Sequence record: NC_052658.1
Origin: Escherichia phage nepoznato
Reading direction: 5' to 3' (one strand)
DNA length: 64,000 nt
Shown here: piece by piece, positions 15,582 to 47,114 of the stretch
Numbering within the stretch: the stretch's first letter is position 1
Layout: each line of letters starts with the position of its first letter
The notes under the pieces: generated by a model
What the model was told of the DNA's origin: nothing
Database searches by the model: none
Seen by the model: only the letters and a program-made list of their open reading frames with translations
Program-made: the position numbers and the translations under genes

Positions 15582-15582
15582 T

Positions 15583-18790: not shown

Positions 18791-18799
18791 GGAGGAAAA

Positions 18800-18994: not shown

Positions 18995-19173
18995 TAATTT
19001 TAGCAACAATTCTTATGATGCTGATAGCAATTGCTATTGTAATACTGGCATCTTTTCCAGCGGATAAATGGTATTTCAATATTCCACGTATGCTTGTTTT
19101 CGGTTTTGCAGGAATTTACATGGGTGAGTCTGTAGTAAATATTAGCAACTTTCTAGAAAGCTATTTTAAATAA
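18991..19173 (+). CDS. hypothetical membrane protein
   Basis: Track ORF 18913-19173 trimmed to the ATG at 18991 after RBS GGAGG; two predicted transmembrane segments. Confidence 0.3.
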   Translation: MIILATILMMLIAIAIVILASFPADKWYFNIPRMLVFGFAGIYMGESVVNISNFLESYFK

Positions 19174-19182
19174 GGAGTTATA

Positions 19183-33623: not shown

Positions 33624-33627
33624 TAAA

Positions 33628-33645
33628 GGGGCTTCGGCCCCTTCT
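33628..33645 (+). terminator. hairpin GGGGC-UUCG-GCCCC with weak U-tract (partial terminator or processing site)
   Basis: Same hairpin as at 29342 and 47124 but followed by TTCT only. Confidence 0.35.
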
Positions 33646-33660
33646 AAAAGGAGTGCTACT

Positions 33661-34419
33661 ATGGGAAATAAAACCGCAGCTAAAACACAACGGCAGAAAC
33701 TGGCTAATTCAGCAAAGATTGAAAGCCGTTATGCAGCAAAAGCGGTAGGTAATGACGATTACCGTTTAGATGAATTTATGCCTGAAGGGGACCAAAATAA
33801 GATTGTTCAAAGCATGATTTGGAATGATCTGACTGTTGTAAATGCTCCGGCAGGGACTGGTAAAACCTCTGTTGCTTTATGGAAAGCTTTGCAGATGCTT
33901 CGTTCAGGAGACTTCCGTAAACTACTTTTTATCAAGAACCCTACTGAAGTAGGAGATGATCAGATTGGTTTCTTGTCTGGGGATAAAACAGATAAACTAG
34001 CAGCACACTATGAATCTACAAAACGTATTTTCCAGCAATTCATGACAGCCAACAAATTGGAAAACGATATTGGATCAGGTAAGATCGAATTGAATATTCC
34101 TAACTATTTGTTGGGAGCTACCCTGGATAATACAATTGTCATTATTGACGAAGCACAACTTATGTCAACAGAAACACTTAAACTTCTTATTGAACGTGCA
34201 GGTATTAATACGCATGTTATTGTATTAGGCGATGTTCGCCAGACATATGCAATTAAAAAACGTAGCAATGGTCTGCATCAAATTTTGGAACTTTTATATC
34301 CAGAAAATGAAGAAGGTGTTCGTGAGCCAATTGTAGATTTTATTGGATATGTTGAACTGACAACGGACGATAATAAACGTGGACGTTTGTCTAAACTGAT
34401 TACTGAAGTGTTTATTTAA
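33661..34419 (+). CDS. phoH: PhoH-like ATPase
   Basis: Track ORF 33610-34419 trimmed to the ATG at 33661 after RBS AAGGAG; Walker A APAGTGKTS; Walker B-like IVIIDEAQ. Confidence 0.7.
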   Translation: MGNKTAAKTQRQKLANSAKIESRYAAKAVGNDDYRLDEFMPEGDQNKIVQSMIWNDLTVVNAPAGTGKTSVALWKALQMLRSGDFRKLLFIKNPTEVGDDQIGFLSGDKTDKLAAHYESTKRIFQQFMTANKLENDIGSGKIELNIPNYLLGATLDNTIVIIDEAQLMSTETLKLLIERAGINTHVIVLGDVRQTYAIKKRSNGLHQILELLYPENEEGVREPIVDFIGYVELTTDDNKRGRLSKLITEVFI

Positions 34420-34451
34420 TAACGTGGCAGGGAAGCCATTTATAAGGAGGA

Positions 34452-34955
34452 TTGATGGGTGTAGCAACAATAGCTATCGGAAGAAGCGGTATAGATGAGT
34501 GCTATCAAACGGGACTCGTAAAACCTAACGAATTTCGTCAAATTTGTGTAAACCATATTGAAAAAGAGATTGCTCTTACTTTAGAGAATATGACCCTCCG
34601 AGATAAACTGGAAATGTTTAAATGTTGGTGTCTAGGAGAAGATTGGCTTTTAAACCATTTTCAAGAACTTTCTGATAGTAAAGAAAGCTTGTTTGATTGT
34701 ATAATAGGAATAGCTGGCTCCGATCCCAGCCTTCTGCACATAACAGAAGAAGAGGCGAAGTTACTGTTCTTAAGTAATTTGTTTAATAAGAAAGCACTGC
34801 TTGTTCGTGATTGTAGTGATCTTCTTAATAACCCGCTCGCAACGTCTGATCAAATTTTTGTTGACAAAGAGACACTACGTGCGATAGAATACATCTGCAA
34901 ATATGTGAATGGCGGGAAAGCGGTTCTTAAAACATTAACAGAGGAGGAAGAATAG
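34452..34955 (+). CDS. hypothetical protein
   Basis: 167 aa ORF; RBS AGGAGG. Confidence 0.4.
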   Translation: MMGVATIAIGRSGIDECYQTGLVKPNEFRQICVNHIEKEIALTLENMTLRDKLEMFKCWCLGEDWLLNHFQELSDSKESLFDCIIGIAGSDPSLLHITEEEAKLLFLSNLFNKKALLVRDCSDLLNNPLATSDQIFVDKETLRAIEYICKYVNGGKAVLKTLTEEEE

Positions 34956-35647
34956 TGACGACAATTATTGCAACCAAGAATAAGATTTTGAGTGATGGTA
35001 AGGTAACTTTTGGCGGACGTGTAGATTCTATTAATTTCAAAAAGGTCCGAAAAATTGGAGATTACCTTGTAGGTGGTGCTGGTCGTCTGACCTCCGTGCT
35101 TTCTTTCTTTCAATGGTTTGAACAAAACCTACAGTGCGAAGCAGCACGTGATGCTGTCCCTGGTTTGATGATTCATTCTGATCCAGACAAAGAAGATGAA
35201 GAGTTTATTGCGCTTGTTGTTCATCCAGACGGACGTATTTTCCTGCACGAAGGTAACAATCCAACACGTGCATATCCGATTGATGAAGAATATTATGCAG
35301 TAGGAAGTGGGTCAGACTTTGCTTTAGCTGCTCTTGATGCAGGGGCAACACCAGAACAAGCTATGGAAGTAGCTAAAAAGCGAGATGCTTTTTCTGGTGG
35401 TGAAACATTTATTGAAGAACAAGACGAGATTATTGAATTAACAGACGATGATTTAGAAAACTTCTCCAAAGAAGAATTAATCAATCTTTTGAAATTCGGT
35501 AATCCCTACGGTGAAGAAGAACCTCGTAACGTGGCAGGTAACGAGGCGGATACTGAAGAAAAATCTGTTGCAGAAAACAACTTGACTTCTAAATCTGAAA
35601 ATATTAATCTCGTAAATGTGGCGGATTTCGAAGGAACCGCTATTTAA
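34955..35647 (+). CDS. HslV-like Ntn-hydrolase peptidase (putative)
   Basis: 230 aa; MTTIIATKNKILSDGKVTFGG...KKVRKIGDYLVGGAG resembles E. coli HslV MTTIVSVRRNG...KKVRRL...AGFAGG, with Thr directly after the initiator Met; acidic C-terminal extension. Confidence 0.5.
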   Translation: MTTIIATKNKILSDGKVTFGGRVDSINFKKVRKIGDYLVGGAGRLTSVLSFFQWFEQNLQCEAARDAVPGLMIHSDPDKEDEEFIALVVHPDGRIFLHEGNNPTRAYPIDEEYYAVGSGSDFALAALDAGATPEQAMEVAKKRDAFSGGETFIEEQDEIIELTDDDLENFSKEELINLLKFGNPYGEEEPRNVAGNEADTEEKSVAENNLTSKSENINLVNVADFEGTAI

Positions 35648-35653
35648 CAAACT

Positions 35654-35676
35654 GCCCCTTCGGGGGCATTTCTTAA
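35654..35676 (+). terminator. intrinsic terminator-like hairpin
   Basis: GCCCC-ttcg-GGGGC followed by ATTTCTT. Confidence 0.45.
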
Positions 35677-35692
35677 ACATAGGAGATTAATA

Positions 35693-36127
35693 ATGTTACA
35701 AGTTCCTGCTAAGTTTGTTGAAGGCGCTATCCACTCTTACCGTCAAACATGTAAGAGGGCAAGAAACTGTTTAGATGGTCTGGTGGCAAAAACCTATACT
35801 GTTGAAAAGAAGAAACGTTGGTTTGGCAAAGATGTTTACGAAGTTAATATTTTTGGTGAACATAAACTAAACCACGATACTCCTGAAAACATGTTAGAAA
35901 TATTTCTAAGAGATGACAAAATATCTCCTATGGATTACCAACTTTTAAAATTTTATGATTCTTCTTTGGCTATTGATAAGTTTGTTGAGGATATTCTGTC
36001 TAGAAAAACAGATAAAAACACTTATCCTCTAGAGGCTGATCAAATAGGATTATTAAACGAGATTTCATCTTTTAAAGAGTTGGATAATATTACAAAAGAG
36101 GAGATTTTAGATGGCATTAGATTATGA
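35693..36127 (+). CDS. hypothetical protein
   Basis: 144 aa ORF. Confidence 0.4.
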   Translation: MLQVPAKFVEGAIHSYRQTCKRARNCLDGLVAKTYTVEKKKRWFGKDVYEVNIFGEHKLNHDTPENMLEIFLRDDKISPMDYQLLKFYDSSLAIDKFVEDILSRKTDKNTYPLEADQIGLLNEISSFKELDNITKEEILDGIRL

Positions 36128-36620
36128 TCGCCCAACGAGCGATTATTATCCAACACCGCAAAAAGCAATCAATAGTTTGTTTAGTGTTATAGATTTCAAA
36201 AATCTAAAGGAAGAAGGTTGGGTTTTTGCAGAACCTTGCAGAGGTGAAGCTGAAGCGATTTATCGCCATTTTCCTGAAGGTTCAGAATATTGTGAACTTG
36301 AAGAAGGTAAGGATTATTTTAGTCACGAGTGGGAAAATCGTCCCGACATTATAATCACAAACCCTCCATTTAAGTTAGCAATGGAGTTCTTGGAAAAGAG
36401 CTTAAAAGAGGCGGATGTTTGTATTTATCTTCTTCGGTTGGGCTTCTTGGAGTCAAAGAAACGACGAGAGTTCCATCAAAAGAATCCACCGACAAACCTT
36501 ATAGTTCTTTCAGAACGGCCTTCGTTTGTTGCAGGTGGAACAGATAAGACAGCATACGCTTGGTATGTATACGACCCAAAGAATCGTTTGGGCCTCTCTC
36601 AACCATTTTATTTTGTTTAA
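36111..36620 (+). CDS. DNA N6-adenine (or N4-cytosine) methyltransferase-like
   Basis: 169 aa; DYYPTP near N-terminus and catalytic-type IIITNPPF. Confidence 0.5.
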   Translation: MALDYDRPTSDYYPTPQKAINSLFSVIDFKNLKEEGWVFAEPCRGEAEAIYRHFPEGSEYCELEEGKDYFSHEWENRPDIIITNPPFKLAMEFLEKSLKEADVCIYLLRLGFLESKKRREFHQKNPPTNLIVLSERPSFVAGGTDKTAYAWYVYDPKNRLGLSQPFYFV

Positions 36621-37909: not shown

Positions 37910-38239
37910 ATGGAAATTACTACAGAACAAGCCCTTATCGACGAGGGTCGTAAAATCTTAGAAAAGCATTTAGGGGAGATTCATAAAACTCCTGGCTATT
38001 TGGGTTGGAGAATTGTTGAAGCTGTAGATTTCCTTCCTCGTAACAGTAAAAGCGTCGAAATGCGATCTCTTTTCTTATTAGTAAAGGTGGATGGGGATAC
38101 ACCTTTTAAAGATGCCGCAGAGCATATTGAAAAAGTTGAAGAGAAAGCTTATGCAGAATTTGCCGATCTTGTTTTAGAACAAGAGATTGAAGGAAAGGTG
38201 AATATTTTTATTTTCTTAGATTTTGAGGAGGATAAGTGA
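37910..38239 (+). CDS. hypothetical protein
   Basis: 109 aa ORF; RBS GGAGGAAGG. Confidence 0.4.
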   Translation: MEITTEQALIDEGRKILEKHLGEIHKTPGYLGWRIVEAVDFLPRNSKSVEMRSLFLLVKVDGDTPFKDAAEHIEKVEEKAYAEFADLVLEQEIEGKVNIFIFLDFEEDK

Positions 38240-38979
38240 TCATACATAGAGAAATTACTGTTAAAAGCGATCAAGATCTTTTTATAATTGGAGATCTACA
38301 CGGTTGTTATAATTTGTATGAAAAAGGAAAGGCAAAGTTAGGTATCCGAGATACAGATGTAGTTGTATCTTTAGGAGATCTTACTGACCGTGGAAAGCAA
38401 AACTTTCGTTGTGTTTTAGAATTTACTCGTAAACACAATCGCTACGCTATTCGTGGAAATCATGAAGACATGATGATTAAAGGTATGCTGGAAGGAGATC
38501 GTAGCTACTTCGAGTGTTGGTATCAAAATGGAGGATATACAGTCCTTGAAGAATGTGGTGAAGAAGGAGCTACAGCCTTAGCAATGATGACAGAAGATTT
38601 ACCTGTTGTTCTCATTGTTAACTACAGAGGCATGAAACTTGCGTTTATTCATGGTGGGTATCCATCTTCTTTGGAATATCTCCCTGTAACAGATATTCCA
38701 GAATACACTTTGAAGATGACAAAAACACAGGAAAACCGTTTTGCTGAAGCACTTATGTGGGACAGAGATATGGTGGACTGTGCTAAAGAGGGAATGAAAC
38801 TTCCTGTTGTGATGGGTGTGGACTATGTGTTTCATGGACACTCTTATGTAAAAACACCTATTATCAATGCGAATCGTGTTTATATGGATACTGGATCTGT
38901 GTTCAATAATAACTTAACATTTGCTTATTTCGATATGGACGGTGGTCTTCAATTTTATTCAACTCTTGAGGAGGATTAA
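38236..38979 (+). CDS. Ser/Thr protein phosphatase (lambda-phosphatase-like metallophosphoesterase)
   Basis: 247 aa; GDLHGCY, GDLTDRG, RGNHE and later HGH motifs. Confidence 0.65.
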   Translation: MIIHREITVKSDQDLFIIGDLHGCYNLYEKGKAKLGIRDTDVVVSLGDLTDRGKQNFRCVLEFTRKHNRYAIRGNHEDMMIKGMLEGDRSYFECWYQNGGYTVLEECGEEGATALAMMTEDLPVVLIVNYRGMKLAFIHGGYPSSLEYLPVTDIPEYTLKMTKTQENRFAEALMWDRDMVDCAKEGMKLPVVMGVDYVFHGHSYVKTPIINANRVYMDTGSVFNNNLTFAYFDMDGGLQFYSTLEED

Positions 38980-39294: not shown

Positions 39295-39876
39295 ATGGCA
39301 GAACTGTTCTATACGGGAGTTGGAAGTAGAGACATATCTGAAGAAGAGTGGGCTTTGATGGTAGGCATAGGAAAATGGCTTTCAAACCTTGGGTTTAAAT
39401 TAAGGTCTGGGAAGGCAGAGGGTAGTGATTCTGCTTTTGAAACAGGTGTCCAAGAGTCTGAAAATCCTACTAACAAGGAGATTTATGTTCCTTGGGAAAA
39501 TTTCAAAGGTAATCAGATTCCAGGTGATGTTATTGTTCTTGCAAAACCAGATACAATGAACTATGCTATCTCTGTGCAATGGATCAAAGATGTTCACCCA
39601 GCTTATGAAAAGCTTAAGCAGGGTGCTAGAAAATTGCACCAACGTAATGTGCATCAGGTGTTAGGCAGAGATTTGGAGAATCCTGCTCCATCGTGTTTCT
39701 TGTTGGCTTGTGCTAATACTGATAAACATGGGGATGCAAAAGGTGGAACAGCTACGGCTTGGAAGATAGCTAAAGCCAATAATGTTCCTTGTTTAAACAT
39801 TCGTGGGAAAACAAAACAAGAGATTTACGATTTTCTACGACCTTTGGTAATGAGGGCAATAACAAGTGATTCCTAA
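39295..39876 (+). CDS. DprA/SLOG-like Rossmann-fold protein
   Basis: Track ORF 39271-39876 trimmed to the ATG at 39295 after RBS GAGGTGA; YTGVGSR and LRSGKAEGSDSAFETG resemble the DprA/Smf signature. Confidence 0.4.
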   Translation: MAELFYTGVGSRDISEEEWALMVGIGKWLSNLGFKLRSGKAEGSDSAFETGVQESENPTNKEIYVPWENFKGNQIPGDVIVLAKPDTMNYAISVQWIKDVHPAYEKLKQGARKLHQRNVHQVLGRDLENPAPSCFLLACANTDKHGDAKGGTATAWKIAKANNVPCLNIRGKTKQEIYDFLRPLVMRAITSDS

Positions 39877-40378
39877 ACGTAAACGTGGTGAACAAAGAAC
39901 AAATTTGGCAGAAATCTTAGATTACAACATGGTTAATGATGTGACAAAAGAAATTCTCCCTATTGTAGAAGATATTCTTCGTAGAGGGTTACGATTCTGC
40001 TCGGATCGGGTACATTTCATGTGGACACATAAAAGTGACTCCGCTTTGAATTTCTATCCTTTAGATTATACTCTGAACAATACAGAGATGAAAGATATCA
40101 ACAAATACTTAATGGGATATAAAGATATAACCGAAACTGTTCTTGGAGAATTGGCAGAGATCTTGGCTAATGATATCCTTAGAAATATTAATAAGGCTCT
40201 TGACAGAAGTCCAGCAGGAGTAGTAGTATCTTTTGCTGTGCCAGATATGGTTAAATATGAGTCTACAATACCTAATAAAGCTTATGCCTTTCTTCGGAGA
40301 GACGTTCGTGGAAATGTGTTGGAGATGGAGTCAAACTACAAGATTGAGGAGGTTTTATGGCAGAGTTCGGATCAGTAA
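39866..40378 (+). CDS. hypothetical protein
   Basis: 170 aa ORF. Confidence 0.4.
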   Translation: MIPKRKRGEQRTNLAEILDYNMVNDVTKEILPIVEDILRRGLRFCSDRVHFMWTHKSDSALNFYPLDYTLNNTEMKDINKYLMGYKDITETVLGELAEILANDILRNINKALDRSPAGVVVSFAVPDMVKYESTIPNKAYAFLRRDVRGNVLEMESNYKIEEVLWQSSDQ

Positions 40379-40647
40379 CAAGTTTTGAAAGTAACTTCGT
40401 TACCGCTTGGGAAGCTTGGGATGAAATGGGTGTTGGGGAACTTTATTTTTACAATGTAACACTACGTCCAGAGTATGCTTACCTGGTACCAGAAGGAACA
40501 GTTCAAATTGGCATGTATTTGTCTTCTCAAGACGGTGTTGTTCAATTTGAGTTTTATTCTAACACAACGGACAACGAATTTACATACCGCGCATTTCATG
40601 TCAACATGTCTTTAGGAGAGGAGAAATTTTATGACGACCAAGTTTAA
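40357..40647 (+). CDS. hypothetical protein
   Basis: 96 aa ORF. Confidence 0.35.
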   Translation: MAEFGSVTSFESNFVTAWEAWDEMGVGELYFYNVTLRPEYAYLVPEGTVQIGMYLSSQDGVVQFEFYSNTTDNEFTYRAFHVNMSLGEEKFYDDQV

Positions 40648-40828
40648 AACAGTAGAAGAAGCCGTAAAAGCAGCTTATGAGGCTTTAGCGGAAGCAGAGC
40701 AGTTAGCAGATGAGACTGGTAAAGGTTTCCGTTTCTCCCCTGAATATGGGATGGGTGGTTATTATGATCCAGAAGACGAAAATGAGAACACTGGAACAAA
40801 TTGGCATCCATCTTCTTTAAGTTGTTAA
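40631..40828 (+). CDS. small acidic protein, W-x-S-S-x-x-C C-terminal family member 1
   Basis: 65 aa ending ...TGTNWHPSSLSC. Confidence 0.4.
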   Translation: MTTKFKTVEEAVKAAYEALAEAEQLADETGKGFRFSPEYGMGGYYDPEDENENTGTNWHPSSLSC

Positions 40829-41109
40829 TAGGAGGTAAAGTGGGAATCGAAGATATCAAAGGTTATAAACCGCATACCGATGACAAAATTGGTAAAGTGA
40901 ATGCTATTAAAGATGCTGAAGTTCGATTAGGATTAATCTTTGATGCTCTAATGTCTGAATTGTGGGCTGAACTGGATGATTGTGAAGATTTGGAAGAGTC
41001 TACCAATATATCCACCCGCCTTGACCAAATTTCAATAGCAAAGACTAAGTTGAAAGAAGCTTCTATGTGGGCCTGTCGTTCCGTTTTCCAACCAGAGGAG
41101 AAATACTAA
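40801..41109 (+). CDS. hypothetical protein
   Basis: 102 aa ORF. Confidence 0.35.
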   Translation: MASIFFKLLIGGKVGIEDIKGYKPHTDDKIGKVNAIKDAEVRLGLIFDALMSELWAELDDCEDLEESTNISTRLDQISIAKTKLKEASMWACRSVFQPEEKY

Positions 41110-41327
41110 TGAGTGATCGTAATGTTGAAGAATTAACTGAAAAAGCCCAAGCTATTATGGCTTTAGTGGACGAACTTACAAAAGAAGCTGAAGATGCTGG
41201 TTTTGGTCTTAGTTTAGAAAATGACGCAATCTGTTTTGAAGATTGGCAATCCTCTTCTTGTTATGGTGAAGGTGATGATGGTTTCGTCGTTAATTCTCAA
41301 GGCGTTTGGCACAGTAGTAGCTGTTAA
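41109..41327 (+). CDS. small acidic protein, W-x-S-S-S-C family member 2
   Basis: Track ORF 41067-41327 trimmed to the ATG at 41109 after RBS GGAGAA; contains WQSSSC internally and ends VWHSSSC. Confidence 0.4.
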   Translation: MSDRNVEELTEKAQAIMALVDELTKEAEDAGFGLSLENDAICFEDWQSSSCYGEGDDGFVVNSQGVWHSSSC

Positions 41328-41336
41328 GGAGAGATT

Positions 41337-41609
41337 GTGGAGTCTGAAGGCGAACTGCTGATAAAAAAGAAAGTTAAAGAGATGGAACAAGCACAAAGAA
41401 AGTTTCGTAAGGAGATTGAAGAACTTTGTGAACAGTTTCAGGAACAAGCTTGGATAGGTGACTACGGTAACGGAGAAACTTATTACCCTACAGGAACGCC
41501 AGCCGCAGATCACTATATTGATTTCATTTGTGAAGATTATGGTGTAGAGTTGGATGAAAATGGTTTAACCACAAGAGGTGTTTGGATCTCTTCTTCCTCA
41601 ATGTGTTAG
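41337..41609 (+). CDS. small acidic protein, W-x-S-S-S-x-C family member 3
   Basis: GTG start after RBS AAGGAGAG; ends ...TTRGVWISSSSMC. Confidence 0.4.
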   Translation: MESEGELLIKKKVKEMEQAQRKFRKEIEELCEQFQEQAWIGDYGNGETYYPTGTPAADHYIDFICEDYGVELDENGLTTRGVWISSSSMC

Positions 41610-41619
41610 TAAATAATAA

Positions 41620-41640
41620 CCCGCTTCGGCGGGTTTTTTA
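41620..41640 (+). terminator. intrinsic terminator
   Basis: CCCGC-ttcg-GCGGG followed by TTTTTTA. Confidence 0.65.
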
Positions 41641-41669
41641 TTGACAGAAATCTGGAAGCTTGATAAACT
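41641..41669 (+). promoter_or_regulatory. sigma70-like promoter (TTGACA, 17 bp, TAAACT)
   Basis: ttttttaTTGACAgaaatctggaagcttgaTAAACT, upstream of CDS 41700-42635. Confidence 0.45.
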
Positions 41670-41699
41670 TAACCTATCAACCAATAGAGGAGAAATATT

Positions 41700-42635
41700 A
41701 TGGTGTTAATTGGTAGCCGTGCATTACAAATTCATGCTATGGATATGGGAAAAGACTTGTATCGCCCTTGTGTAGATTTAGATTACCTCTGTACAGAACA
41801 AGAATGGGAAGAATTATCAAAAATGTTCTCTCAAGATGAGTTTGTTGAACTTGTAGAGCGTAAAGGGAACAAGGGCCATGTCAAAATGATAGCTGGTGCA
41901 CATTTGGAATACGATATTGCTTCTCAAGGAGATAGCACAGAAGCTTTGATTAGTTATTGTGAAGACTCTGATGATATTCGTCGAACTTACGCTGGACACG
42001 TTGTTGCTCCTTTAGATGTGCTCTACCTTCTTAAAATGAGTCATCGTTTTAAAAAGGATAGTCCTCACTTCTTTAAAACTATGAAAGATATTCATTTCAT
42101 GCGGTCACTGGGCGCAAAGATCCCAGAAAATCTTAAGAGTATTTATGAGTTGCGTGAGAAAGAAACATACACTTACTCTCATCCAAACTTAAACGTGAGA
42201 AGTAAAGACTTCTTTAAAGGTGATGAGGTTCCGTATGTTTATGATCATGACTCTATTCATGAAGCAATCGCAGTAATGGATGCTCCAGCATATAAATCTT
42301 ATATGAAAGATGGAAGTGAAGTTATGACCAGCAAAGAAAAGTTTTTTGCTCAACCAAAACATGTGCGCCTGTTAGGTGTTTATGAAGAAGCGTGTGTTTT
42401 GGCTTTGGAACGTTCACAAATTCCTTTCGGTGAAGAGATCGGAGGTCCAACCCCTAAGCAAAGTTTTATGATGGCTTTATCTAAAGTTTGCACATCTATC
42501 ACTAGTGGTTGGTTTCGTGAATATGCCTATGAATCCTTCCATGTCGTGATGAAGCTTTATGAAAGTATGGGAGAAGATGATTACATCAAAAGATTCCACG
42601 CTAATAAACACTTACTTAAACCTTTTGAGGAATAG
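41700..42635 (+). CDS. hypothetical protein, possible nucleotidyltransferase fold
   Basis: 311 aa; N-terminal LIGSRALQIHAMDMGKD...CVDLDYL loosely resembles the GS...DxD nucleotidyltransferase signature but spacing is atypical. Confidence 0.3.
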   Translation: MVLIGSRALQIHAMDMGKDLYRPCVDLDYLCTEQEWEELSKMFSQDEFVELVERKGNKGHVKMIAGAHLEYDIASQGDSTEALISYCEDSDDIRRTYAGHVVAPLDVLYLLKMSHRFKKDSPHFFKTMKDIHFMRSLGAKIPENLKSIYELREKETYTYSHPNLNVRSKDFFKGDEVPYVYDHDSIHEAIAVMDAPAYKSYMKDGSEVMTSKEKFFAQPKHVRLLGVYEEACVLALERSQIPFGEEIGGPTPKQSFMMALSKVCTSITSGWFREYAYESFHVVMKLYESMGEDDYIKRFHANKHLLKPFEE

Positions 42636-42636
42636 T

Positions 42637-43308
42637 ATGGGGAGGAAATTAGAAAACCTGTCTGGAATGGTATTCAATGGTATAACAGTTCTTGATGTAG
42701 CAATTAAGGAGACTGGATGATCTACAAAATGGAATTGTATTTGTCATTGCGGTGAGAAGTTTGTTACTACAGCCGAAAGATTAAAATCTGGTAAAACTAA
42801 ATCTTGTGGTTGTGAGCGTTACCATTACAAGTTCATTGAGGATAGATATACATATAATTCCTACAATGCCATGATAGACAGGTGCACCAATGAGAACTCA
42901 CCGAATTATCCTAAGTATGGAGGTAGTGGAGTTTCTGTATGCTGTAGATGGTTAGAGAAGGGGGACTTAGGTTTTTTGAATTTCGTTGAGGATATGGGTA
43001 GTAGACCACAAAACACAACCTTAAACAGAATTAATTCTGCTGATGTTTATAGCAAAGAAACCTGTGAGTGGGCTTCACTCGCAATGCAATCTTATGATCA
43101 AAAACTAAGGAAAGATAATCTATCCGGTATTTGTGGGGTAAAATACAGAAAAGATAGGGGCAAATGGATTGCATACATCCGAGTCAATGGAGAGCATATT
43201 AGTTTATACTATGGTAACAGTAAAGAAGAAGCTATTCGTAAACGGAAGGAGGCAGAGATGTTATATTATGATAGGGCTAAGGTGAAACCTTACGAAGGAG
43301 GTTATTGA
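42637..43308 (+). pseudogene. AP2/HNH-family endonuclease-like gene interrupted by an in-frame TGA
   Basis: ATG at 42637 gives MGRKLENLSGMVFNGITVLDVAIKETG, then TGA at 42718-42720, then the same frame continues STKWNCICHCGEKF...KSGKTKSCGC...YGGSGVSVCCRWL... to the stop at 43308. Confidence 0.4.
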
Positions 43309-43309
43309 T

Positions 43310-43708
43310 ATGGGTTGGTGTGATCAGTCACAAAGTTACTTCAAAGTAACACATGCGGATCTCAACAAAGCAAGAGTGAAGTTGTTGAGTATCGAAAAAG
43401 AAACAGTGGCTATTGACAAACGTCTCCGAGAGAGTAAAGTGGTAATCACTTCTTGGTTTGGACTGAAACGTAAAGTCATGACGCAACGAGAGCATGTAGT
43501 TAAAAATATGCACGGTTGGGCTTGGTTCCACGATATGGCAGAACATTTGGGATACATTTCTCCTGAAGAACATGATCTCTTGGAGTTACGCTACCGCCTT
43601 CCAGATGTAGAAGATTTAGATTTGTGGATCAGTTCAGAACAGATCTTCCTAACAGAAAGTGATTGGCGTAAAGTTATGGCTTGTCTTGAATGGAGGGGTA
43701 ATGAGTAA
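43310..43708 (+). CDS. hypothetical protein
   Basis: 132 aa ORF. Confidence 0.4.
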   Translation: MGWCDQSQSYFKVTHADLNKARVKLLSIEKETVAIDKRLRESKVVITSWFGLKRKVMTQREHVVKNMHGWAWFHDMAEHLGYISPEEHDLLELRYRLPDVEDLDLWISSEQIFLTESDWRKVMACLEWRGNE

Positions 43709-44384
43709 AACAGTTTTGTCTATGTTTGACGGATCTGGGATCATGGTGTTACGTTATGCCGAAGCAGGTCACAAGTGTTTTTGTGTAAACGCTGATGAAG
43801 GGGACCACGGTAAATACGAGGTTAGGATGGAGCACCCAAACATAACCTATGTGAATGCTTGGATAGATTCTACATTCAACCCTGAAGATCATGGAATACC
43901 TAAACCCGATATTATTTTTGGATTTCCACCTTGCACTATGTTAGCAGGTAGTGGTAGCAAACACGAACGCAGCACAGAGGAATTAGATGAAGCTTTAGCT
44001 AATATTCGTGTAGTGGAAGATTTGGGTAACAAATACAATGTTCCTTGGATGATTGAGAACCCAGTAGGTAAACTTTCAACCTTATGGCGTAAACCAGATT
44101 TTTACTTTGATCCTTATGAGTATGGTGGGTATTTGTTTGAAGAGGAAGGAAGCTTTCATCCTAAAATGCCTACCCGTGATGGGTATACAAAGAAAACTTG
44201 TATTTGGCACGGCAATGGTTTTGTTCAACCAGTGAAGAAACCAGTAGATCATATAGGCTGCTTCTGGGGTTGGAAAAGCTTAGGTGGAGCTAGTGCAAAA
44301 ACAAAACAACTTAGATCACTAACCGCACGTGGTTTTGCTCGTGCAGTGTTTTTGTCTAACAATCTTCTAGATAAGGAGAAATAA
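43701..44384 (+). CDS. DNA cytosine-C5 methyltransferase-like protein
   Basis: Track ORF 43659-44384 trimmed to the ATG at 43701 after RBS GGAGGGG; motif I SMFDGSG, motif IV GFPPCT, ENP (ENV-like). Confidence 0.45.
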   Translation: MSKTVLSMFDGSGIMVLRYAEAGHKCFCVNADEGDHGKYEVRMEHPNITYVNAWIDSTFNPEDHGIPKPDIIFGFPPCTMLAGSGSKHERSTEELDEALANIRVVEDLGNKYNVPWMIENPVGKLSTLWRKPDFYFDPYEYGGYLFEEEGSFHPKMPTRDGYTKKTCIWHGNGFVQPVKKPVDHIGCFWGWKSLGGASAKTKQLRSLTARGFARAVFLSNNLLDKEK

Positions 44385-45034
44385 TGTCAAATTCAAAACC
44401 AGTGGTTGCTTATCAAGTAGATCGTAATGATGGTGAAGGAAGTGTTGTTATTTTCAGTACACACGGTCTTGAGGCTCGTCGAAAAGGTGCATATCGTTTA
44501 GAATGTGAGTTTGAAGACTGCACAAGCCACCGTGTCAAACAATTCGATCAATATGCTGATAAAGGCTTCGTCCCTATCAAAGCCTTACTGGAAGATGGTT
44601 GGTGGGTATATTCTGCTTTTGATGGTGTTAGACTCGACGAACCTGTAGGAGGTCTTGAGGCAGATTTTGATGAATGCGAAGATGGCTTGTATATTGAAGA
44701 GGATCTTGTATTCTCCCTTGACGAGAAAAGTGTGTGGAAGAACTGGGAAGAAATGGAACGTCACGCGCATTTTATCAACAATGCTTTGATTCGTAAAGCT
44801 TGGTTTATGGAGGCGGTGAAGGTAGCGTATCCGCAGTTCACCTTTACAGAGGTTTGGGGCGGTCCACACCACATCACCCATACAGCATTTTTCGACTTCC
44901 CTGGTTCACGTTACAAAGGTAATATAATGTGGGACTGGGATGAGAATAAAGTACCATCTGTTAAAGACTTTCGTTGCTATGTTTGCCAAGGTGATCAAGA
45001 AGCCCTTGACAAATACCTACAAAGTCTGGTATAG
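44384..45034 (+). CDS. hypothetical protein
   Basis: 216 aa ORF. Confidence 0.4.
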   Translation: MSNSKPVVAYQVDRNDGEGSVVIFSTHGLEARRKGAYRLECEFEDCTSHRVKQFDQYADKGFVPIKALLEDGWWVYSAFDGVRLDEPVGGLEADFDECEDGLYIEEDLVFSLDEKSVWKNWEEMERHAHFINNALIRKAWFMEAVKVAYPQFTFTEVWGGPHHITHTAFFDFPGSRYKGNIMWDWDENKVPSVKDFRCYVCQGDQEALDKYLQSLV

Positions 45035-45052
45035 TGCCAACATCTGAACAAA

Positions 45053-45080
45053 GCCTCCTGTTTCAGGGGGCTTTTCTTTT
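45053..45080 (+). terminator. intrinsic terminator
   Basis: GCCTCCTG-tttc-AGGGGGC followed by TTTTCTTTT. Confidence 0.55.
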
Positions 45081-45092
45081 ATAGGAGGGAAT

Positions 45093-45572
45093 ATGTTTCA
45101 AGTAAATATCAATGTGCATAATAGTTACTCTGATTGTGAAACGTGTGGCTATAATTCATCTAATGTTGTTCGTATTAGTGGCGATTTAGGAGAAGCTTCT
45201 TTTGGAGAAGAAGCAAGTTGCTTTAGTGGTATGGATGCAGAATGGAATGATATTGCACATTGGTTGGTGAGCAAACTAAAAGAAAAAGAGAAACCCTTTC
45301 CTACTCTGCTTGATCGTTCCTTTGTAGAAGATGCAGGTAAAGCATATGCGGATTATGCTTATGCAGACGGGAAATATTTGGAAGATGATAAGGCTAACCA
45401 TTTGCTTTATGTTTATTATGAAGCTGAATCTGCCTACGATAATTATTATAGCATGTCTAACATCCTCCGTCTATTTGCAGAGTTTGATATTTATTTTGAA
45501 GTAGAATTTTCAGAAGATGATACTTACGAATATGATTCTTATGATCCATTTGAGGAGGACGAGGGTGAATGA
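45093..45572 (+). CDS. hypothetical highly acidic protein
   Basis: 159 aa rich in Asp/Glu/Tyr; C-terminus ...EDDTYEYDSYDPFEEDEGE. Confidence 0.4.
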   Translation: MFQVNINVHNSYSDCETCGYNSSNVVRISGDLGEASFGEEASCFSGMDAEWNDIAHWLVSKLKEKEKPFPTLLDRSFVEDAGKAYADYAYADGKYLEDDKANHLLYVYYEAESAYDNYYSMSNILRLFAEFDIYFEVEFSEDDTYEYDSYDPFEEDEGE

Positions 45573-46309
45573 TAGAACGAAAACCCTTACCAGATAGAGA
45601 TTACTTGTTATCAAGGTTTAGTGTGGAGAATGGTCGTCTTGTTTGGAAACCTAAACCTTCTACAACAAAAGAGAACAAAAGGTGGAATAGCAGATACGCA
45701 GGGAAGATTGCAGGGACTATTGATAAAGTTGGTTACTCTCATGTCAAAATAGATGGTATTGTATACTTGGAGCACAGAGTTTGTTTTAAAATGTACCATA
45801 ATTACTGTCCAGATGTTATAGATCATGATGATGGCAATAAGCTTAATAATGCGGAAAGTAATTTATTGGATAGTAACTATTTATTAAATAATAACAATAG
45901 ACATGTGGATGGGTTAGAAGGTATTTATGAAAAGGATGGTGTTTTTCTTTGGGTTATAAACTACAACCAAGAAACTTTCTCTGTTTCAGGTTTCAAAACT
46001 AAAGAGGAAGCTACTGTAGCTAGAGCTTTAGCAAAACAAGAAATTTTGAAAGGATCTTATATCAAAAAAGAAAAGAAGCGTATAGATAACACTTCAGGAT
46101 TAAGTTGTGTGTTTGTGGCAACAAGAGAGAGAACATTCTTTTTCAAGTTTGTGTTTGACAAGACCACGTATTGCAAATATGGTTTCAACGATCCAGAGAG
46201 ATGTGCTATAGCTCTGGAGAAGCTAAGGTTGAAGGTGATGAAAGAAAAATATAAACCTGCAAATAAAAGCATTTGCGAAAAACATAAGGAGGAGATTTAT
46301 GCCGCGTAG
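45569..46309 (+). CDS. HNH endonuclease
   Basis: 246 aa; ...DVIDHDDGNKLNNAESNLL HNH core. Confidence 0.6.
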   Translation: MIERKPLPDRDYLLSRFSVENGRLVWKPKPSTTKENKRWNSRYAGKIAGTIDKVGYSHVKIDGIVYLEHRVCFKMYHNYCPDVIDHDDGNKLNNAESNLLDSNYLLNNNNRHVDGLEGIYEKDGVFLWVINYNQETFSVSGFKTKEEATVARALAKQEILKGSYIKKEKKRIDNTSGLSCVFVATRERTFFFKFVFDKTTYCKYGFNDPERCAIALEKLRLKVMKEKYKPANKSICEKHKEEIYAA

Positions 46310-47114
46310 AGTCATATTCATAACTGGCGCAGGACTATCTGTGGATAGCGGTATCCCAGCTTTTAGAACAGATACTTCTTCAGGGGAGGCGTTATGGTCT
46401 TCTTATAATCTTTCTGAAGTCTGTGACATTTTCAACTTCCGTGACGGTTATCAGCAAGAACAAGGTATTCTTGATGCTATGGGCGGTTTAGATGCGGAAG
46501 GATATAACCTCTACCGTAAAACTCACGACTTTTACAATAAACGTCGCGCGGAATTAGAGAAAGTTGACCCGAATCCGGCACATCTTCAGATTGGGGAATG
46601 GTTCAAAAAACATGGTGCAGAAAAGATTATTAACATCACTACTAACGTTGATGACCTCCTTGAACGAGCAGGAGTAGATAGGGAAGAAGTGCTACATGTG
46701 CATGGTTTTCTTCCTGAAATTACTTTTCAAAGAAAAGCTGGACAACCTACAATTGTAAAAGATGTTGGTTATCAAGCCATAGATGTAGATGACTACCATT
46801 ATGTAAAACCTAATGTAATCTTCTTTGGGGAAGCTGCTCCACTTTACACAGATATGTATCATATTTTTGATACACTGACGGCTCAAGATATGGTTATCGT
46901 TGTAGGCTGCTCTAACCAAGTAATCAACTTCAACTGGGAACTCTTCCCTGCCCTGAATATTGGGGTTAAGATGGTTGTAGTTAACCCAGGTTTGAATTTT
47001 GTAGAACAAACTCTCTACGAAGAACGTGGAGTGCTTGTCTACCGAGAGAAAGCAGGAACAGTCTTCAGTGATGAAGGCTTTATCAAAATGGTCGAAGACC
47101 ACTTAAACAAATAA
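46299..47114 (+). CDS. Sir2-family protein (NAD-dependent deacylase / ADP-ribosyltransferase-like)
   Basis: 271 aa; ITGAGLSVDSGIPAFR, TTNVDDLLERAG, LHVHG, NVIFFGEAAP; no CxxC zinc module. Confidence 0.65.
   Translation: MPRRVIFITGAGLSVDSGIPAFRTDTSSGEALWSSYNLSEVCDIFNFRDGYQQEQGILDAMGGLDAEGYNLYRKTHDFYNKRRAELEKVDPNPAHLQIGEWFKKHGAEKIINITTNVDDLLERAGVDREEVLHVHGFLPEITFQRKAGQPTIVKDVGYQAIDVDDYHYVKPNVIFFGEAAPLYTDMYHIFDTLTAQDMVIVVGCSNQVINFNWELFPALNIGVKMVVVNPGLNFVEQTLYEERGVLVYREKAGTVFSDEGFIKMVEDHLNK

What the first reader, a model, noticed from the sequence alone, without database searches (positions are those of the whole stretch)
39295..47114. Loose cluster of candidate anti-defence genes: DprA/SLOG-like, possible nucleotidyltransferase, C5-methyltransferase-like and Sir2-like proteins
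Sir2 and SLOG domains are common effectors or sensors in bacterial NAD-depleting defence systems; phage-borne versions could be counter-measures or have been captured for another use. A Dam-like methyltransferase lies just upstream at 36111-36620. The calls rest on short motifs and the functional link between these genes is speculative.
Basis: inference. Interest (0 to 1): 0.5.

Follow-up and report, generated by a model that had tools for sequence, protein, structure and literature searches.

The report
Phapecoctavirus accessory block with Acb2 sponge

Summary
The window is a Phapecoctavirus (97% identical to DIJ07P2 and ECML-183-2). All four domain calls hold. 39295-39876 has a SLOG fold of the DprA branch. 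41700-42635 is a pol-beta nucleotidyltransferase whose nearest solved folds are the MenT toxins, fused to DUF7275. 43701-44384 keeps C5-methyltransferase motifs I, IV and VI. 46299-47114 is a sirtuin.

The sirtuin is CobB-like, lacks the zinc-ribbon cysteines and matches no defence-type Sir2 model. It belongs to the phage clade that Iyer et al. 2022 predicted to act in RNA repair. The four families have independent distributions and lie together only in Stephanstirmvirinae-like genomes. Terminator/promoter-like sites split them into about three units, and two HNH homing-endonuclease genes are inserted.

The interval does hold one gene with an experimentally characterised anti-defence homologue that was missed: 40840-41109 is 78% identical to T4 Vs.4/Acb2 (PDB 7UQ2).

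One feature I found no description of: three small proteins ending in W-x-S-S-..-Cys-stop belong to a family that sits just upstream of the nucleotidyltransferase in 71 of 80 diverse phage loci and in no held locus that lacks it.

Overall this is mostly ordinary and already annotated, with one new lead.

The parts
39295..39876 (+). Stand-alone SLOG-fold protein of the DprA branch (193 aa)
39866..40378 (+). Unknown protein (170 aa), PHROG 8569
   Evidence: No Pfam, NCBIfam, PADLOC or PDB match
40357..40647 (+). Unknown protein (96 aa), PHROG 4991
40631..40828 (+). Cys-terminal small protein, copy 1 (65 aa, ends ...TNWHPSSLSC-stop)
   Evidence: Family HMM E=1.5e-17
40840..41109 (+). Acb2 / T4 Vs.4 homologue (89 aa): anti-CBASS cyclic-nucleotide sponge
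   Evidence: PF24729 Acb2_Tad1_hairpin E=1.9e-19; phmmer to PDB 7UQ2 'Vs.4' E=1.6e-42 over the full length; 68/87 identical; annotated as vs.4-like in phage nieznany gp063
41109..41327 (+). Cys-terminal small protein, copy 2 (72 aa from the ATG used in nieznany gp064; ends ...GVWHSSSC-stop; has an internal DWQSSSC)
   Evidence: Family HMM E=2.3e-6; PHROG 899
41337..41609 (+). Cys-terminal small protein, copy 3 (90 aa, ends ...GVWISSSSMC-stop)
   Evidence: Family HMM E=5.9e-15; PHROG 899 E=5e-14; the small relatives fetched from the 1.84-billion-protein library all end W-x-(S/A)-S-S-x-x-C
41618..41669 (+). Terminator-like hairpin (41618-41635) followed by a promoter-like site (41641-41669), between the small-protein array and the nucleotidyltransferase gene
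   Evidence: Consensus scan only
41700..42635 (+). MenT-like pol-beta nucleotidyltransferase (DUF7277) fused to the helical DUF7275 domain (311 aa)
42871..43308 (+). Remnant of an HNH/AP2-type homing endonuclease (145 aa); insertion absent from most relatives
   Evidence: PHROG 374 E=1e-39, matching only profile positions 279-409; weak AP2 hit; no counterpart between nieznany gp066 and gp067; typical relatives cover only 76% of the interval
43310..43708 (+). Unknown protein (132 aa), PHROG 16551; overlaps the start of the methyltransferase gene
43701..44384 (+). Short C5-cytosine-methyltransferase-like protein (227 aa)
   Evidence: PHROG 757; invariant FDGSG, FP-C, ENP; PADLOC DruM/MTase_II E about 1e-4; PF00145 in 4/38 members; M.HaeIII E=0.096 with motifs I and IV aligned
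44384..45034 (+). Unknown protein (216 aa), PHROG 8514
45006..45074 (+). Promoter-like site (11/12 match) and strong terminator-like hairpin between units
45093..45572 (+). Unknown acidic protein (159 aa), PHROG 9509
45569..46309 (+). HNH_3 homing endonuclease (246 aa); insertion absent from most relatives
   Evidence: Pfam HNH_3 E=1e-4, PHROG 99 E=2.5e-33; no counterpart between nieznany gp070 and gp071
46299..47114 (+). Sirtuin of the phage-specific clade without the zinc-ribbon cysteines (271 aa)
   Evidence: PF02146 E=3e-21; CobB-type NCBIfam models; no defence Sir2 hit; Sir2Af2 and CobB structures E=1e-14; motifs conserved and Cys4 absent across the clade; 989 phage records
47122..47139 (+). 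Terminator-like hairpin after the sirtuin gene

Best explanation
The interval is not one system. It is the distal 8 kb of a long plus-strand block of non-structural genes in a phAPEC8-like myovirus. It is a mosaic of independently acquired accessory genes for host takeover, counter-defence and nucleic-acid housekeeping, interrupted by two selfish homing-endonuclease genes.

Gene by gene:
(a) Acb2/Vs.4 (40840-41109) soaks up CBASS cyclic-nucleotide signals. This is shown for the 78%-identical T4 protein and inferred here.
(b) The C5-methyltransferase-like protein, and the NPPF amino-methyltransferase upstream, methylate phage DNA and blunt restriction (inferred).
(c) The sirtuin uses NAD+ for ADP-ribosyl transfer or deacylation. 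It most likely works as the Iyer/Aravind model proposes for its clade: KptA-like removal of 2'-phosphates during repair of RNAs cut by host nucleases. The RNA ligase, kinase and phosphoesterase cassette it would work with lies 27-30 kb upstream in this genome (inferred).
(d) The DprA-branch SLOG protein binds ssDNA or a nucleotide (inferred; the ligand is unknown).
(e) The MenT-like nucleotidyltransferase-DUF7275 enzyme works together with the array of Cys-terminal small proteins encoded just upstream. This pairing is a conserved, phage-restricted module of unknown chemistry.
For: Identity and synteny: 97% identical to Phapecoctavirus records, and gene-for-gene equivalent to nieznany gp059-gp071 apart from two HNH insertions.

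Independent distributions:
- Of 80 diverse SLOG loci, only the 7 with 58-66% identity carry Sir2 within 10 kb, 5 carry the nucleotidyltransferase and 4 the C5-methyltransferase.
- Of 80 C5-methyltransferase loci, many from 45-50 kb phages, only 5 carry SLOG and Sir2 and 4 the nucleotidyltransferase.
- Of 80 nucleotidyltransferase loci, only 8 carry Sir2, 9 the C5-methyltransferase and 11 SLOG.
- No neighbour of the SLOG gene is conserved in more than 20 of 80 loci.

Terminator/promoter-like pairs at 41618-41669 and 45006-45074 and a terminator at 47122 split the four genes into about three units.

Acb2; mechanism from PMC10312549.

Sirtuin: CobB-type, with no defence-type match. It is 53% identical to the Mydo protein and 47% to the rV5-type FV3 protein. 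In both of those phages the gene sits with RNA ligase 1, a phosphoesterase and DNA ligase, and in Mydo also with an ATPase and a MazG-type pyrophosphohydrolase. That is the context Iyer et al. described. Homologues of that whole cassette are in this window at 14315-19887.

Nucleotidyltransferase module:
- The small-protein HMM hits 71 of 80 nucleotidyltransferase loci (173 copies).
- 66 of those loci have a copy upstream on the same strand, with a median gap of 359 nt.
- 19 of 22 nucleotidyltransferase clusters at 60% identity have it.
- It hits only 6 of 160 control loci, and all six also carry the nucleotidyltransferase.
Against: No experiment exists for any Phapecoctavirus gene here. Shared position in an accessory block could still reflect co-regulated counter-defence roles that comparative genomics cannot see.

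The RNA-repair role of the sirtuin is a published prediction, not a demonstration. In this genus the gene is 27-30 kb from the ligase cassette, and the RNA ligase and kinase found no match in the 44.8 kb of phage nieznany that I held, although nieznany keeps the sirtuin.

The C5-methyltransferase-like protein is short (227 aa). I identified no motif VIII and no target-recognition domain by eye, and its family profile finds no solved methyltransferase. DNA methylation is therefore not assured.

A terminator/promoter-like pair lies between the small-protein array and the nucleotidyltransferase gene in this phage.
Confidence: 0.6

Rival explanations
1. One reading: a coordinated island against NAD+/nucleotide-signal immunity. 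The SLOG protein binds or cleaves Thoeris-type cADPR signals, the sirtuin and the nucleotidyltransferase manipulate NAD+/ADPr or make decoy nucleotides, the methyltransferases block restriction, and Acb2 blocks CBASS.
Against: The SLOG is of the DprA branch, whereas Iyer et al. place most viral SLOGs in the YpsA-like clade. The nucleotidyltransferase lacks the Ho et al. signature GS-x-AY[GAN]T-x4-SDxD and resembles MenT tRNA-modifying toxins. The sirtuin matches no defence-type model. The families do not travel together outside one subfamily. Acb2 itself is patchy among close relatives.
Confidence: 0.15
2. An RNA (tRNA) repair and maintenance toolkit. The MenT-like nucleotidyltransferase-DUF7275 rebuilds or trims damaged tRNA 3' ends. 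The sirtuin removes 2'-phosphates in a KptA-like way. The nearby calcineurin-like phosphatase (38236-38979) and the upstream RNA ligase/kinase cassette complete healing and sealing.
For: The Iyer et al. prediction for this sirtuin clade. Sirtuin next to RNA ligase in Mydo and FV3. The cassette is present in the window. The nearest folds of the nucleotidyltransferase, the MenT toxins, are known from the literature (not read here) to act on tRNA acceptor ends. DUF7275 proteins lie next to an RNA ligase in Streptomyces phage Annadreamy, near a tRNA nucleotidyltransferase in Bacillus phage G, beside a tRNA cluster in Gordonia phage Miskis, and 2.1 kb from a Sir2 gene in Vibrio phage R11Z.
Against: These are anecdotal contexts. 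Only 8 of 80 nucleotidyltransferase loci have Sir2 within 10 kb. T4-like carriers of the nucleotidyltransferase show no Sir2 in the held flanks. This reading gives no role to the tightly linked Cys-terminal small proteins. No biochemical data exist.
Confidence: 0.25
3. The sirtuin is a CobB mimic. It is a protein lysine deacylase or ADP-ribosyltransferase that reprogrammes host or phage proteins, for example by reversing acetylation-based inhibition, and has no connection to its neighbours.
For: The best sequence matches are CobB, Sir2Af2 and SIRT5 deacylases. The catalytic His and the NAD-binding motifs are conserved.
Against: All scores fall far below the equivalog cut-offs (98 bits against 243). 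The zinc-ribbon cysteines are absent throughout the clade. That module helps form the acyl-lysine substrate cleft in canonical sirtuins, which is general knowledge and was not tested here.
Confidence: 0.2

Closest known systems
T4 Vs.4 / Acb2 anti-CBASS sponge (PDB 7UQ2; Pfam PF24729)
   Same: 40840-41109 has the same length (89 aa) and is 78% identical from end to end, with E=1.6e-42. The Pfam domain scores 70 bits against a cut-off of 27.
   Different: It is in a Phapecoctavirus, wedged inside an array of Cys-terminal small-protein genes. It is present in some relatives only. Ligand binding was not tested.
Phage sirtuin clade of Iyer, Burroughs, Anantharaman and Aravind 2022 (rV5, Mydo, T5-like SP15, Serratia phage BF), predicted KptA-like RNA 2'-phosphate removal
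   Same: 47-59% identical to the Mydo, rV5-type and T5-like proteins. The motifs are shared and the zinc-ribbon cysteines are missing in Mydo, FV3 and the Stephanstirmvirinae-like relatives aligned. The RNA ligase, kinase, phosphoesterase and MazG cassette is present in the same genome.
   Different: The gene is 27-30 kb from that cassette instead of adjacent to it. Its immediate neighbours are an HNH endonuclease gene and unknown ORFs.
CobB / Sir2Af2 NAD-dependent protein deacylases
   Same: Rossmann core, the GAGxS, SGIPxFR and xNxD motifs, and the catalytic His.
   Different: No Cys4 zinc module, TTNVDD instead of TQNID, and scores far below the equivalog cut-offs.
ThsA (Thoeris), DSR and Sir2-HerA defence sirtuins
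   Same: Only the shared Sir2 superfamily fold, plus the fact that a SLOG and a Sir2 are encoded 6.4 kb apart.
   Different: No PADLOC match. SLOG and Sir2 are separate genes in separate predicted transcription units and do not co-occur in other lineages. The SLOG is DprA-like, not ThsA-like.
DprA/Smf Rossmann domain and the ShosA antitoxin (SLOG superfamily)
   Different: It is a single 193-aa domain in which Pfam finds no other domain, so the flanking domains of cellular DprA appear to be absent (general knowledge of DprA; their absence was not specifically tested). A family-specific H115-x-R-N-x-x-Q motif is present. Binding to ssDNA or RecA was not tested (ShosA data).
MenT / AbiEii-type nucleotidyltransferase toxins (MenT1 8an4, MenT3 6j7n, MenT4 6y56)
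   Different: No Pfam AbiEii hit. There is an extra, highly conserved DUF7275 part with no structural match. The family is phage-restricted, with only 5 MAG contigs among 185,579 genomes. The upstream partners are 1-6 paralogues with an invariant C-terminal W-x-S-S-..-C tail.
Type II C5-cytosine DNA methyltransferases (M.HaeIII, Dcm; PF00145)
   Same: Motif I FxGxG, motif IV PC and motif VI ENV-like (ENP) are invariant and aligned.
   Different: Only 227 aa. I recognised no motif VIII and no target-recognition domain. The C-terminal half is family-specific and 55-60% identical across unrelated phages. The family profile finds no PDB methyltransferase.

Membership tests
Acb2 / Vs.4 cyclic-oligonucleotide sponge | Sequence membership in the Acb2_Tad1_hairpin family and full-length similarity to a characterised member | tested here: met
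   PF24729 70 bits (cut-off 27); 7UQ2 E=1.6e-42, 78% identity
Acb2 / Vs.4 cyclic-oligonucleotide sponge | Hexamer that binds 3',3'-cGAMP and related cyclic dinucleotides and rescues phage from CBASS | not testable with these tools
   Needs ITC or gel shift and plaque assays; the mechanism is taken from PMC10312549
Sirtuin (Sir2) superfamily | Rossmann core with GAGxS, SGIPxFR and xNxD motifs and the catalytic His | tested here: met
   PF02146 E=3e-21; motifs at residues 10, 17, 114 and 133, conserved in 12 clade members
Canonical CobB-type protein deacylase | Cys4 zinc-ribbon module and an equivalog-level score | tested here: not met
   Only two Cys in the protein (positions 42 and 204), neither in the zinc-module segment, and the same across the clade; 98 bits against a cut-off of 243
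Defence-type Sir2 NADases (ThsA, DSR1/2, Sir2-HerA, pAgo-Sir2) | Similarity to the defence Sir2 profiles, fused or adjacent to a sensor partner | tested here: not met
   No PADLOC hit apart from noise at E=0.038; the neighbours are an HNH endonuclease gene and unknown ORFs
Phage RNA-repair sirtuin clade (Iyer et al. 2022) | Orthology to the rV5, Mydo and T5-like sirtuins | tested here: met
   47-59% identity over at least 97% of the length; shared motif set
Phage RNA-repair sirtuin clade (Iyer et al. 2022) | Gene neighbourhood with RNA ligase, cREC, kinase, MazG or HAD | tested here: inconclusive
   The cassette is present in the same genome at 14315-19887 but 27-30 kb away; it is adjacent in Mydo and FV3
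SLOG superfamily | Rossmannoid alpha/beta sandwich with a Gly-rich loop after strand 1 and a GGxxT-type loop | tested here: met
DprA recombination mediator | Binds ssDNA and RecA; carries the additional domains of cellular DprA | not tested
   Only the Rossmann domain is present (193 aa); binding needs experiments
Thoeris-like SLOG-Sir2 pair | SLOG and Sir2 fused, or co-inherited as a sensor-effector pair | tested here: not met
   They are separate genes 6.4 kb apart; only 7 of 80 SLOG loci have Sir2 nearby, all close relatives
Pol-beta nucleotidyltransferase superfamily (MenT/AbiEii-like) | hG[GS] ... [DE]h[DE]h ... h[DE]h catalytic set on the beta-alpha-beta core | tested here: met
Pol-beta nucleotidyltransferase superfamily (MenT/AbiEii-like) | tRNA acceptor-end nucleotidylation, with toxicity neutralised by a cognate antitoxin | not testable with these tools
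   Needs enzymology and toxicity assays
Phage cyclic-dinucleotide-synthesising MNT-like nucleotidyltransferases (Ho et al.) | GS-x-AY[GAN]T-x4-SDxD and NP-x-h2[DE] motifs | tested here: not met
   The motif is absent from 41700-42635 and from every ORF of the window
C5-cytosine DNA methyltransferase | Motifs I (FxGxG), IV (PC) and VI (ENV) | tested here: met
   F9-D-G-S-G13, F75-P76-x-C78 and E119-N120-P121 invariant; aligned to M.HaeIII and to a recalled M.HhaI sequence
C5-cytosine DNA methyltransferase | Motifs VIII-X and a target-recognition domain; Pfam gathering-level match | tested here: not met
   No Pfam hit for the window protein and only 4 of 38 relatives hit PF00145; the profile finds no PDB methyltransferase; the protein is 227 aa

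The most novel reading that the evidence does not exclude
The array of small proteins ending in an invariant W-x-S-S-(x)-Cys-COOH tail (three copies here, one to six elsewhere), together with the MenT-like nucleotidyltransferase-DUF7275 enzyme, is an undescribed phage-only enzyme/partner module. I found it in Phapecoctavirus, many T4-like genera, jumbo phages and Pseudomonas phages.

The most interesting version is that the enzyme nucleotidylylates, or otherwise modifies, the Ser/Cys tail of the small proteins. That would resemble a precursor-peptide/modifying-enzyme system, or a type VII toxin-antitoxin pair. The alternative is that the small proteins gate a tRNA-modifying nucleotidyltransferase.

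In this phage the known sponge gene acb2 sits inside the array, which hints at a counter-defence role.
Probability: 0.3. Interest if true: 0.7.

Novelty: new member of a known kind. Interest (0 to 1): 0.4.

Why it matters
For the finding as written, little changes. These genes are already annotated in dozens of Phapecoctavirus records, and the sirtuin and SLOG proteins were surveyed computationally in 2022.

Three points are useful:
1. A therapy-relevant coliphage genus carries a near-T4 copy of the anti-CBASS sponge. It is unannotated in at least one close relative. This bears on host-range prediction.
2. The phage sirtuin clade has no zinc-ribbon cysteines and is not a defence-type NADase. 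Annotation pipelines and anti-defence predictors should not equate a phage Sir2 with NAD depletion.
3. The tight, phage-restricted linkage between a Cys-terminal small-protein family and a MenT-like nucleotidyltransferase/DUF7275 gives a concrete, testable handle on a protein family present in more than 700 sequenced phages with no assigned function.

Tried and rejected
- Defence-type Sir2: PADLOC gave no hit. Rejected.
- A ThsA-like SLOG-Sir2 partnership: no co-occurrence beyond close relatives. Rejected.
- The nucleotidyltransferase as the Av-05-type cGAMP-making enzyme of Ho et al.: regex scans for the signature motif over all six frames of the window found nothing. Rejected.
- The small Cys-terminal proteins as divergent Acb2/Tad1 sponges: hhalign probability 0.6%. 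Rejected.
- A chromosomal toxin-antitoxin or defence origin for the nucleotidyltransferase module: only 5 MAG contigs among 185,579 species genomes. Unlikely.
- Profile search of the C5-methyltransferase family against PDB sequences: no hit. Weak support only.
- A concatenate of 14 unknown ORFs against all PDB sequences: no hit.
- NAD-salvage genes (NAMPT, PRPP synthetase, as found near Sir2 in Mydo): absent from the window.
- Literature searches for DUF7275/DUF7277, phage sirtuin experiments and phage SLOG sponges found nothing specific.
- The afdb50 fold library was unavailable.

Full report
WHAT THE SEQUENCE IS

The 7.8 kb interval is 97% identical to Phapecoctavirus DIJ07P2 and Escherichia phage ECML-183-2. 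It is 92-95% identical, over about 76% of its length, to many phAPEC8-like phages. It corresponds gene for gene to gp059-gp071 of the RefSeq phage nieznany. In that record three of the four genes are already named 'DprA-like DNA recombination-mediator protein', 'DNA methyltransferase' (Dcm) and 'Sir2 (NAD-dependent deacetylase)'.

GC skew and the ORF map show one plus-strand block running from about 12 kb to 47.4 kb, followed by converging minus-strand genes. The 24% of the interval missing from most relatives consists of two inserted homing-endonuclease genes. One is a truncated HNH/AP2-type remnant at 42871-43308. The other is an HNH_3 gene at 45569-46309. Neither has a counterpart between nieznany gp066/gp067 or gp070/gp071.

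CHECKING THE FOUR DOMAIN CALLS

SLOG/DprA-like protein (39295-39876)
- PHROG 768, E=2e-62.
- The window protein itself barely touches Pfam DprA (E=0.07). However, 34 of 51 homologues hit PF02481 at E<=0.01, the best at 2.6e-7.
- A profile of the family aligns its GSR ... SG-A-G-D motifs to DprA 3maj.
- An AlphaFold model built on 51 sequences has pLDDT 95.5.
- The fold call is therefore right, and the branch is DprA-like rather than ThsA-like.

Nucleotidyltransferase (41700-42635)
- Pfam DUF7277 (residues 1-87) plus DUF7275 (residues 107-297).
- In 45 homologues G5-S6, D26-x-D28 and E70 are invariant. In the model (pLDDT 91.7) they lie on the strands and at the helix start expected of a pol-beta nucleotidyltransferase core, by my reading of the secondary structure.
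- Foldseek finds only MenT1 significant, at E=6e-4.
- The C-terminal half of DUF7275 is very conserved (H115, H123, H161, H183-D184, H187, E229-E230, C264-T-S-I-T-S-G270) but has no structural match.

C5-methyltransferase-like protein (43701-44384)
- PHROG 757.
- The window protein has no Pfam hit, but motif I (F9-D-G-S-G13), motif IV (F75-P-x-C78) and motif VI (E119-N-P121) are invariant in 38 homologues.
- PADLOC cytosine-methylase models match residues 5-114 at E about 1e-4.
- Four of 38 relatives hit PF00145, the best at 3e-6.
- M.HaeIII aligns across motifs I-IV at E=0.096.
- The protein is short. I recognised no target-recognition domain. Its family profile finds no solved methyltransferase. 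'C5-methyltransferase-like' is the right level of claim.

Sirtuin (46299-47114)
- PF02146 E=3e-21, CobB-type NCBIfam models, and Sir2Af2 and CobB structures at E=1e-14.

The upstream 'Dam-like' protein (36111-36620) is PHROG 799 and carries an IIITNPPF motif.

PADLOC contains the defence sirtuins, and none matches. The protein keeps GAGLS, SGIPAFR, TTNVDD, HVHG and FFGE. Its only two cysteines are at positions 42 and 204. The segment that aligns to the Cys4 zinc ribbon of Sir2Af2 contains none. The same holds for the Mydo and FV3 (rV5-type) proteins and for nine Stephanstirmvirinae-like relatives from IMG/VR contigs.

Homologues occur in 989 phage records: T5-like phages, rV5-like phages, Mydo, Vibrio phages of about 250 kb, and Yersinia and Erwinia jumbo phages. 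This is the 'distinct clade' of viral sirtuins that Iyer, Burroughs, Anantharaman and Aravind (Viruses 2022, PMC9503650) linked to RNA ligase, cREC, kinase, MazG and HAD genes. They proposed that it removes RNA 2'-phosphates in the manner of KptA.

I confirmed that context in Mydo and FV3. Homologues of the whole cassette are in this window. They comprise a cREC-like gene at 14315-14659, a phosphoesterase at 15036-15557, RNA ligase at 15589-16509, a kinase/ATPase at 16519-16917, DNA ligase at 17675-18784 and MazG at 19240-19887. That is 27-30 kb upstream of the sirtuin. The ligase and kinase found no match in the 44.8 kb of nieznany that I held, although nieznany keeps the sirtuin. The link is therefore loose in this genus.

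IS IT A CLUSTER IN ANY FUNCTIONAL SENSE?

I fetched 80 diverse viral contigs around homologues of each of three families and searched them with all 28 proteins of the region.
- SLOG loci: only the seven closest (58-66% identity) have Sir2 within 10 kb. Five have the nucleotidyltransferase and four the C5-methyltransferase. The commonest companions are PhoH (30 loci) and the PHROG 799 methyltransferase (20 loci). No neighbour family is found in more than 20 of 80 loci.
- C5-methyltransferase loci: many come from 45-50 kb phages. Only five share SLOG and Sir2, and four share the nucleotidyltransferase.
- Nucleotidyltransferase loci: T4-like phages, jumbo phages, Pseudomonas phages and others. 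Eight have Sir2, nine the C5-methyltransferase and eleven SLOG.

The four genes are therefore neighbours by descent in one subfamily and not a conserved system.

Consensus scans place a terminator-like hairpin plus a promoter-like site at 41618-41669, another pair at 45006-45074, and terminators at 47122 and 47434. These split the four genes into about three units. This is consensus evidence only.

40840-41109 encodes an 89-aa protein. It scores 70 bits on Pfam Acb2_Tad1_hairpin (cut-off 27). It aligns end to end with T4 Vs.4 (PDB 7UQ2) at E=1.6e-42, with 68 of 87 residues identical. T4 Vs.4/Acb2 forms an interlocked hexamer that sequesters 3',3'-cGAMP and other CBASS signals (PMC10312549).

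This is the only gene in the interval with an experimentally characterised anti-defence homologue. Its presence is patchy. It is in this phage, in nieznany (gp063, 'vs.4') and in ECML-183-2, where it is unannotated. It is absent from the Stephanstirmvirinae-like IMG/VR contigs I held.

A CONSERVED MODULE THAT I FOUND NO DESCRIPTION OF

Clustering the neighbours of the nucleotidyltransferase revealed a small-protein family. In 163 of the 170 ORFs in the cluster that family is represented by a protein of roughly 60-120 aa.
- 161 of the 170 clustered ORFs end with Cys as the last residue.
- The conserved tail is G-x-W-x-S-S-(x0-3)-C-stop.
- It is preceded by a helical 'AE-x-x-ADE-x-G-x-x-F' segment and a 'YG-x-G-x-x-YY-P' motif.

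The window has three copies: 40631-40828 (ends WHPSSLSC), 41109-41327 (ends WHSSSC) and 41337-41609 (ends WISSSSMC). The acb2 gene sits between copies 1 and 2.

A family HMM gives these results:
- It hits 71 of 80 nucleotidyltransferase loci, 173 copies in all. The earlier BLAST clustering counted one to six copies per locus.
- 66 loci have a copy upstream on the same strand, with a median gap of 359 nt.
- 19 of 22 nucleotidyltransferase clusters at 60% identity have it.
- It hits only 6 of the 160 SLOG and C5-methyltransferase control loci, and all six also carry the nucleotidyltransferase.

Further observations on the family:
- A single-sequence search of 1.84 billion representative proteins found 22 relatives. 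Every small one that I fetched ends W-x-(S/A)-S-S-x-x-C.
- The family has no Pfam model and is PHROG 899, 'unknown function'.
- It is unrelated to Acb2 (hhalign probability 0.6%).
- The nucleotidyltransferase family is in 733 phage records, annotated in the listed records mostly as 'hypothetical' and in a few as a nucleotidyltransferase. It is almost absent from bacterial genomes: 5 MAG contigs among 185,579 species.
- I found no paper mentioning DUF7275 or DUF7277.
- DUF7275-only proteins in actinophages and in Vibrio phage R11Z lack this partner family.

What the pair does is unknown. Three ideas are consistent with the anatomy, and all are inference:
1. The small proteins are substrates whose Ser/Cys tail is nucleotidylylated.
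2. They regulate a MenT-like enzyme that acts on tRNA.
3. They are independent host-targeting proteins kept next to it.

COMPARISON WITH KNOWN WORK ON PHAGE NUCLEOTIDYLTRANSFERASES

Ho et al. (bioRxiv 10.1101/2022.06.09.495361) described MNT-like phage nucleotidyltransferases that make cGAMP and lie near methyltransferase genes. One of them is from the phAPEC8-like phage Av-05. They also described Atd1, a phage MazG. AntiDefenseFinder lists Atd1 in Phapecoctavirus. The signature of that nucleotidyltransferase family is absent from 41700-42635 and from every ORF of the window. This is a different enzyme. The MazG gene at 19240-19887 is a candidate Atd1 homologue that I did not test.

VERDICT

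The region is accessory and includes one homologue of a proven counter-defence gene plus plausible anti-restriction methylases.

The Sir2/SLOG analogy to NAD-depleting defence systems does not hold. The genes are not functionally linked by any comparative evidence. The Cys-terminal small-protein/nucleotidyltransferase-DUF7275 module is the one item worth following up.

Noticed in passing
window 14315-19887 (+): An RNA-repair-type cassette homologous to the genes that flank Sir2 in Proteus phage Mydo and rV5-like phage FV3: cREC-like 14315-14659, phosphoesterase 15036-15557, RNA ligase 1 at 15589-16509 (58% identical to Mydo), kinase/ATPase 16519-16917 (74%), ATP-dependent DNA ligase 17675-18784 and MazG 19240-19887. 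The RNA ligase and kinase found no match in the first 44.8 kb of phage nieznany.
   Followed up: partly
window 19240-19887 (+): A MazG-like nucleotide pyrophosphohydrolase. AntiDefenseFinder lists the anti-TIR factor Atd1, a phage MazG that depletes (p)ppGpp (Ho et al.), in Phapecoctavirus, so this is a candidate Atd1 homologue. It was not compared with the PcCB7V protein.
   Followed up: no
window 8101-10544 (-): A cluster of nine tRNA genes (Met x2, Ile, Pro, Gly, Thr, Asn, Ser, Arg) on the minus strand.
   Followed up: no
window 33610-36620 (+), and SLOG loci L014, L024, L026-L029, L031, L034, L035, L040, L043, L067: A PhoH-like ATPase (33610-34419), an HslV/proteasome-like protein (34955-35647) and the short NPPF methyltransferase (36111-36620). 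Across unrelated phage contigs the SLOG gene co-occurs more often with PhoH (30/80 loci) and this methyltransferase family (20/80 loci) than with Sir2. In one lineage the order is PhoH - SLOG - methyltransferase.
   Followed up: partly
window 38236-38979 (+): A calcineurin-like (NinI-type) phosphoesterase two genes upstream of the SLOG gene. Homologues lie within 10 kb of the DUF7275 nucleotidyltransferase in 22 of 80 loci. It also matches weakly a PHROG annotated as RNA ligase.
   Followed up: no
L002 4492-4815 (Escherichia phage ECML-183-2, OL631481): The Acb2/Vs.4 homologue lies in a stretch with no CDS call in this GenBank record (gap between the annotated CDSs at 4337-4534 and 4815-5033). 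The Sir2 gene and the genes between Dcm and it are also unannotated there.
   Followed up: partly
L247 4600-4938, L248 4603-4893, L250 3570-3866: DUF7275-only proteins of Streptomyces phage Annadreamy, Gordonia phage Miskis and Vibrio phage R11Z are each flanked by a roughly 100-aa protein with a shared C-terminal motif (..GYYDS..(x)..EV.P....IT.Y..). This may be a different conserved partner of DUF7275.
   Followed up: no
L250 3866-4627 and 6766-7527 (Vibrio phage vB_ValM_R11Z): In this KVP40-like phage the DUF7275 protein lies 2.1 kb upstream of a Sir2 gene. In Annadreamy it lies 1.2 kb from an RNA ligase gene, and in Bacillus phage G 2.7 kb from a tRNA nucleotidyltransferase gene. These are anecdotal hints of an RNA-related role.
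   Followed up: partly
window 44384-45034 (+): An unknown 216-aa protein (PHROG 8514) immediately downstream of the C5-methyltransferase-like gene, with a 'FPGSRYKGNIMWDWD' segment near its C-terminus. It superficially resembles a nucleotidyltransferase GS..DxD motif, but too few residues follow it for a nucleotidyltransferase fold. The protein persists in relatives that lack the methyltransferase (L006, L007).
   Followed up: partly
L246 (phage IME08, NC_014260) 3725-5957: In T4-like Dhakavirus the nucleotidyltransferase (orf116, the RB69 ORF134c homologue) lies in the e.2-e.8 accessory region, and the family HMM finds four Cys-terminal small-protein copies in this locus. In T4-like loci acb2/vs.4 lies 5-8 kb downstream of the nucleotidyltransferase rather than inside the array.
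   Followed up: partly
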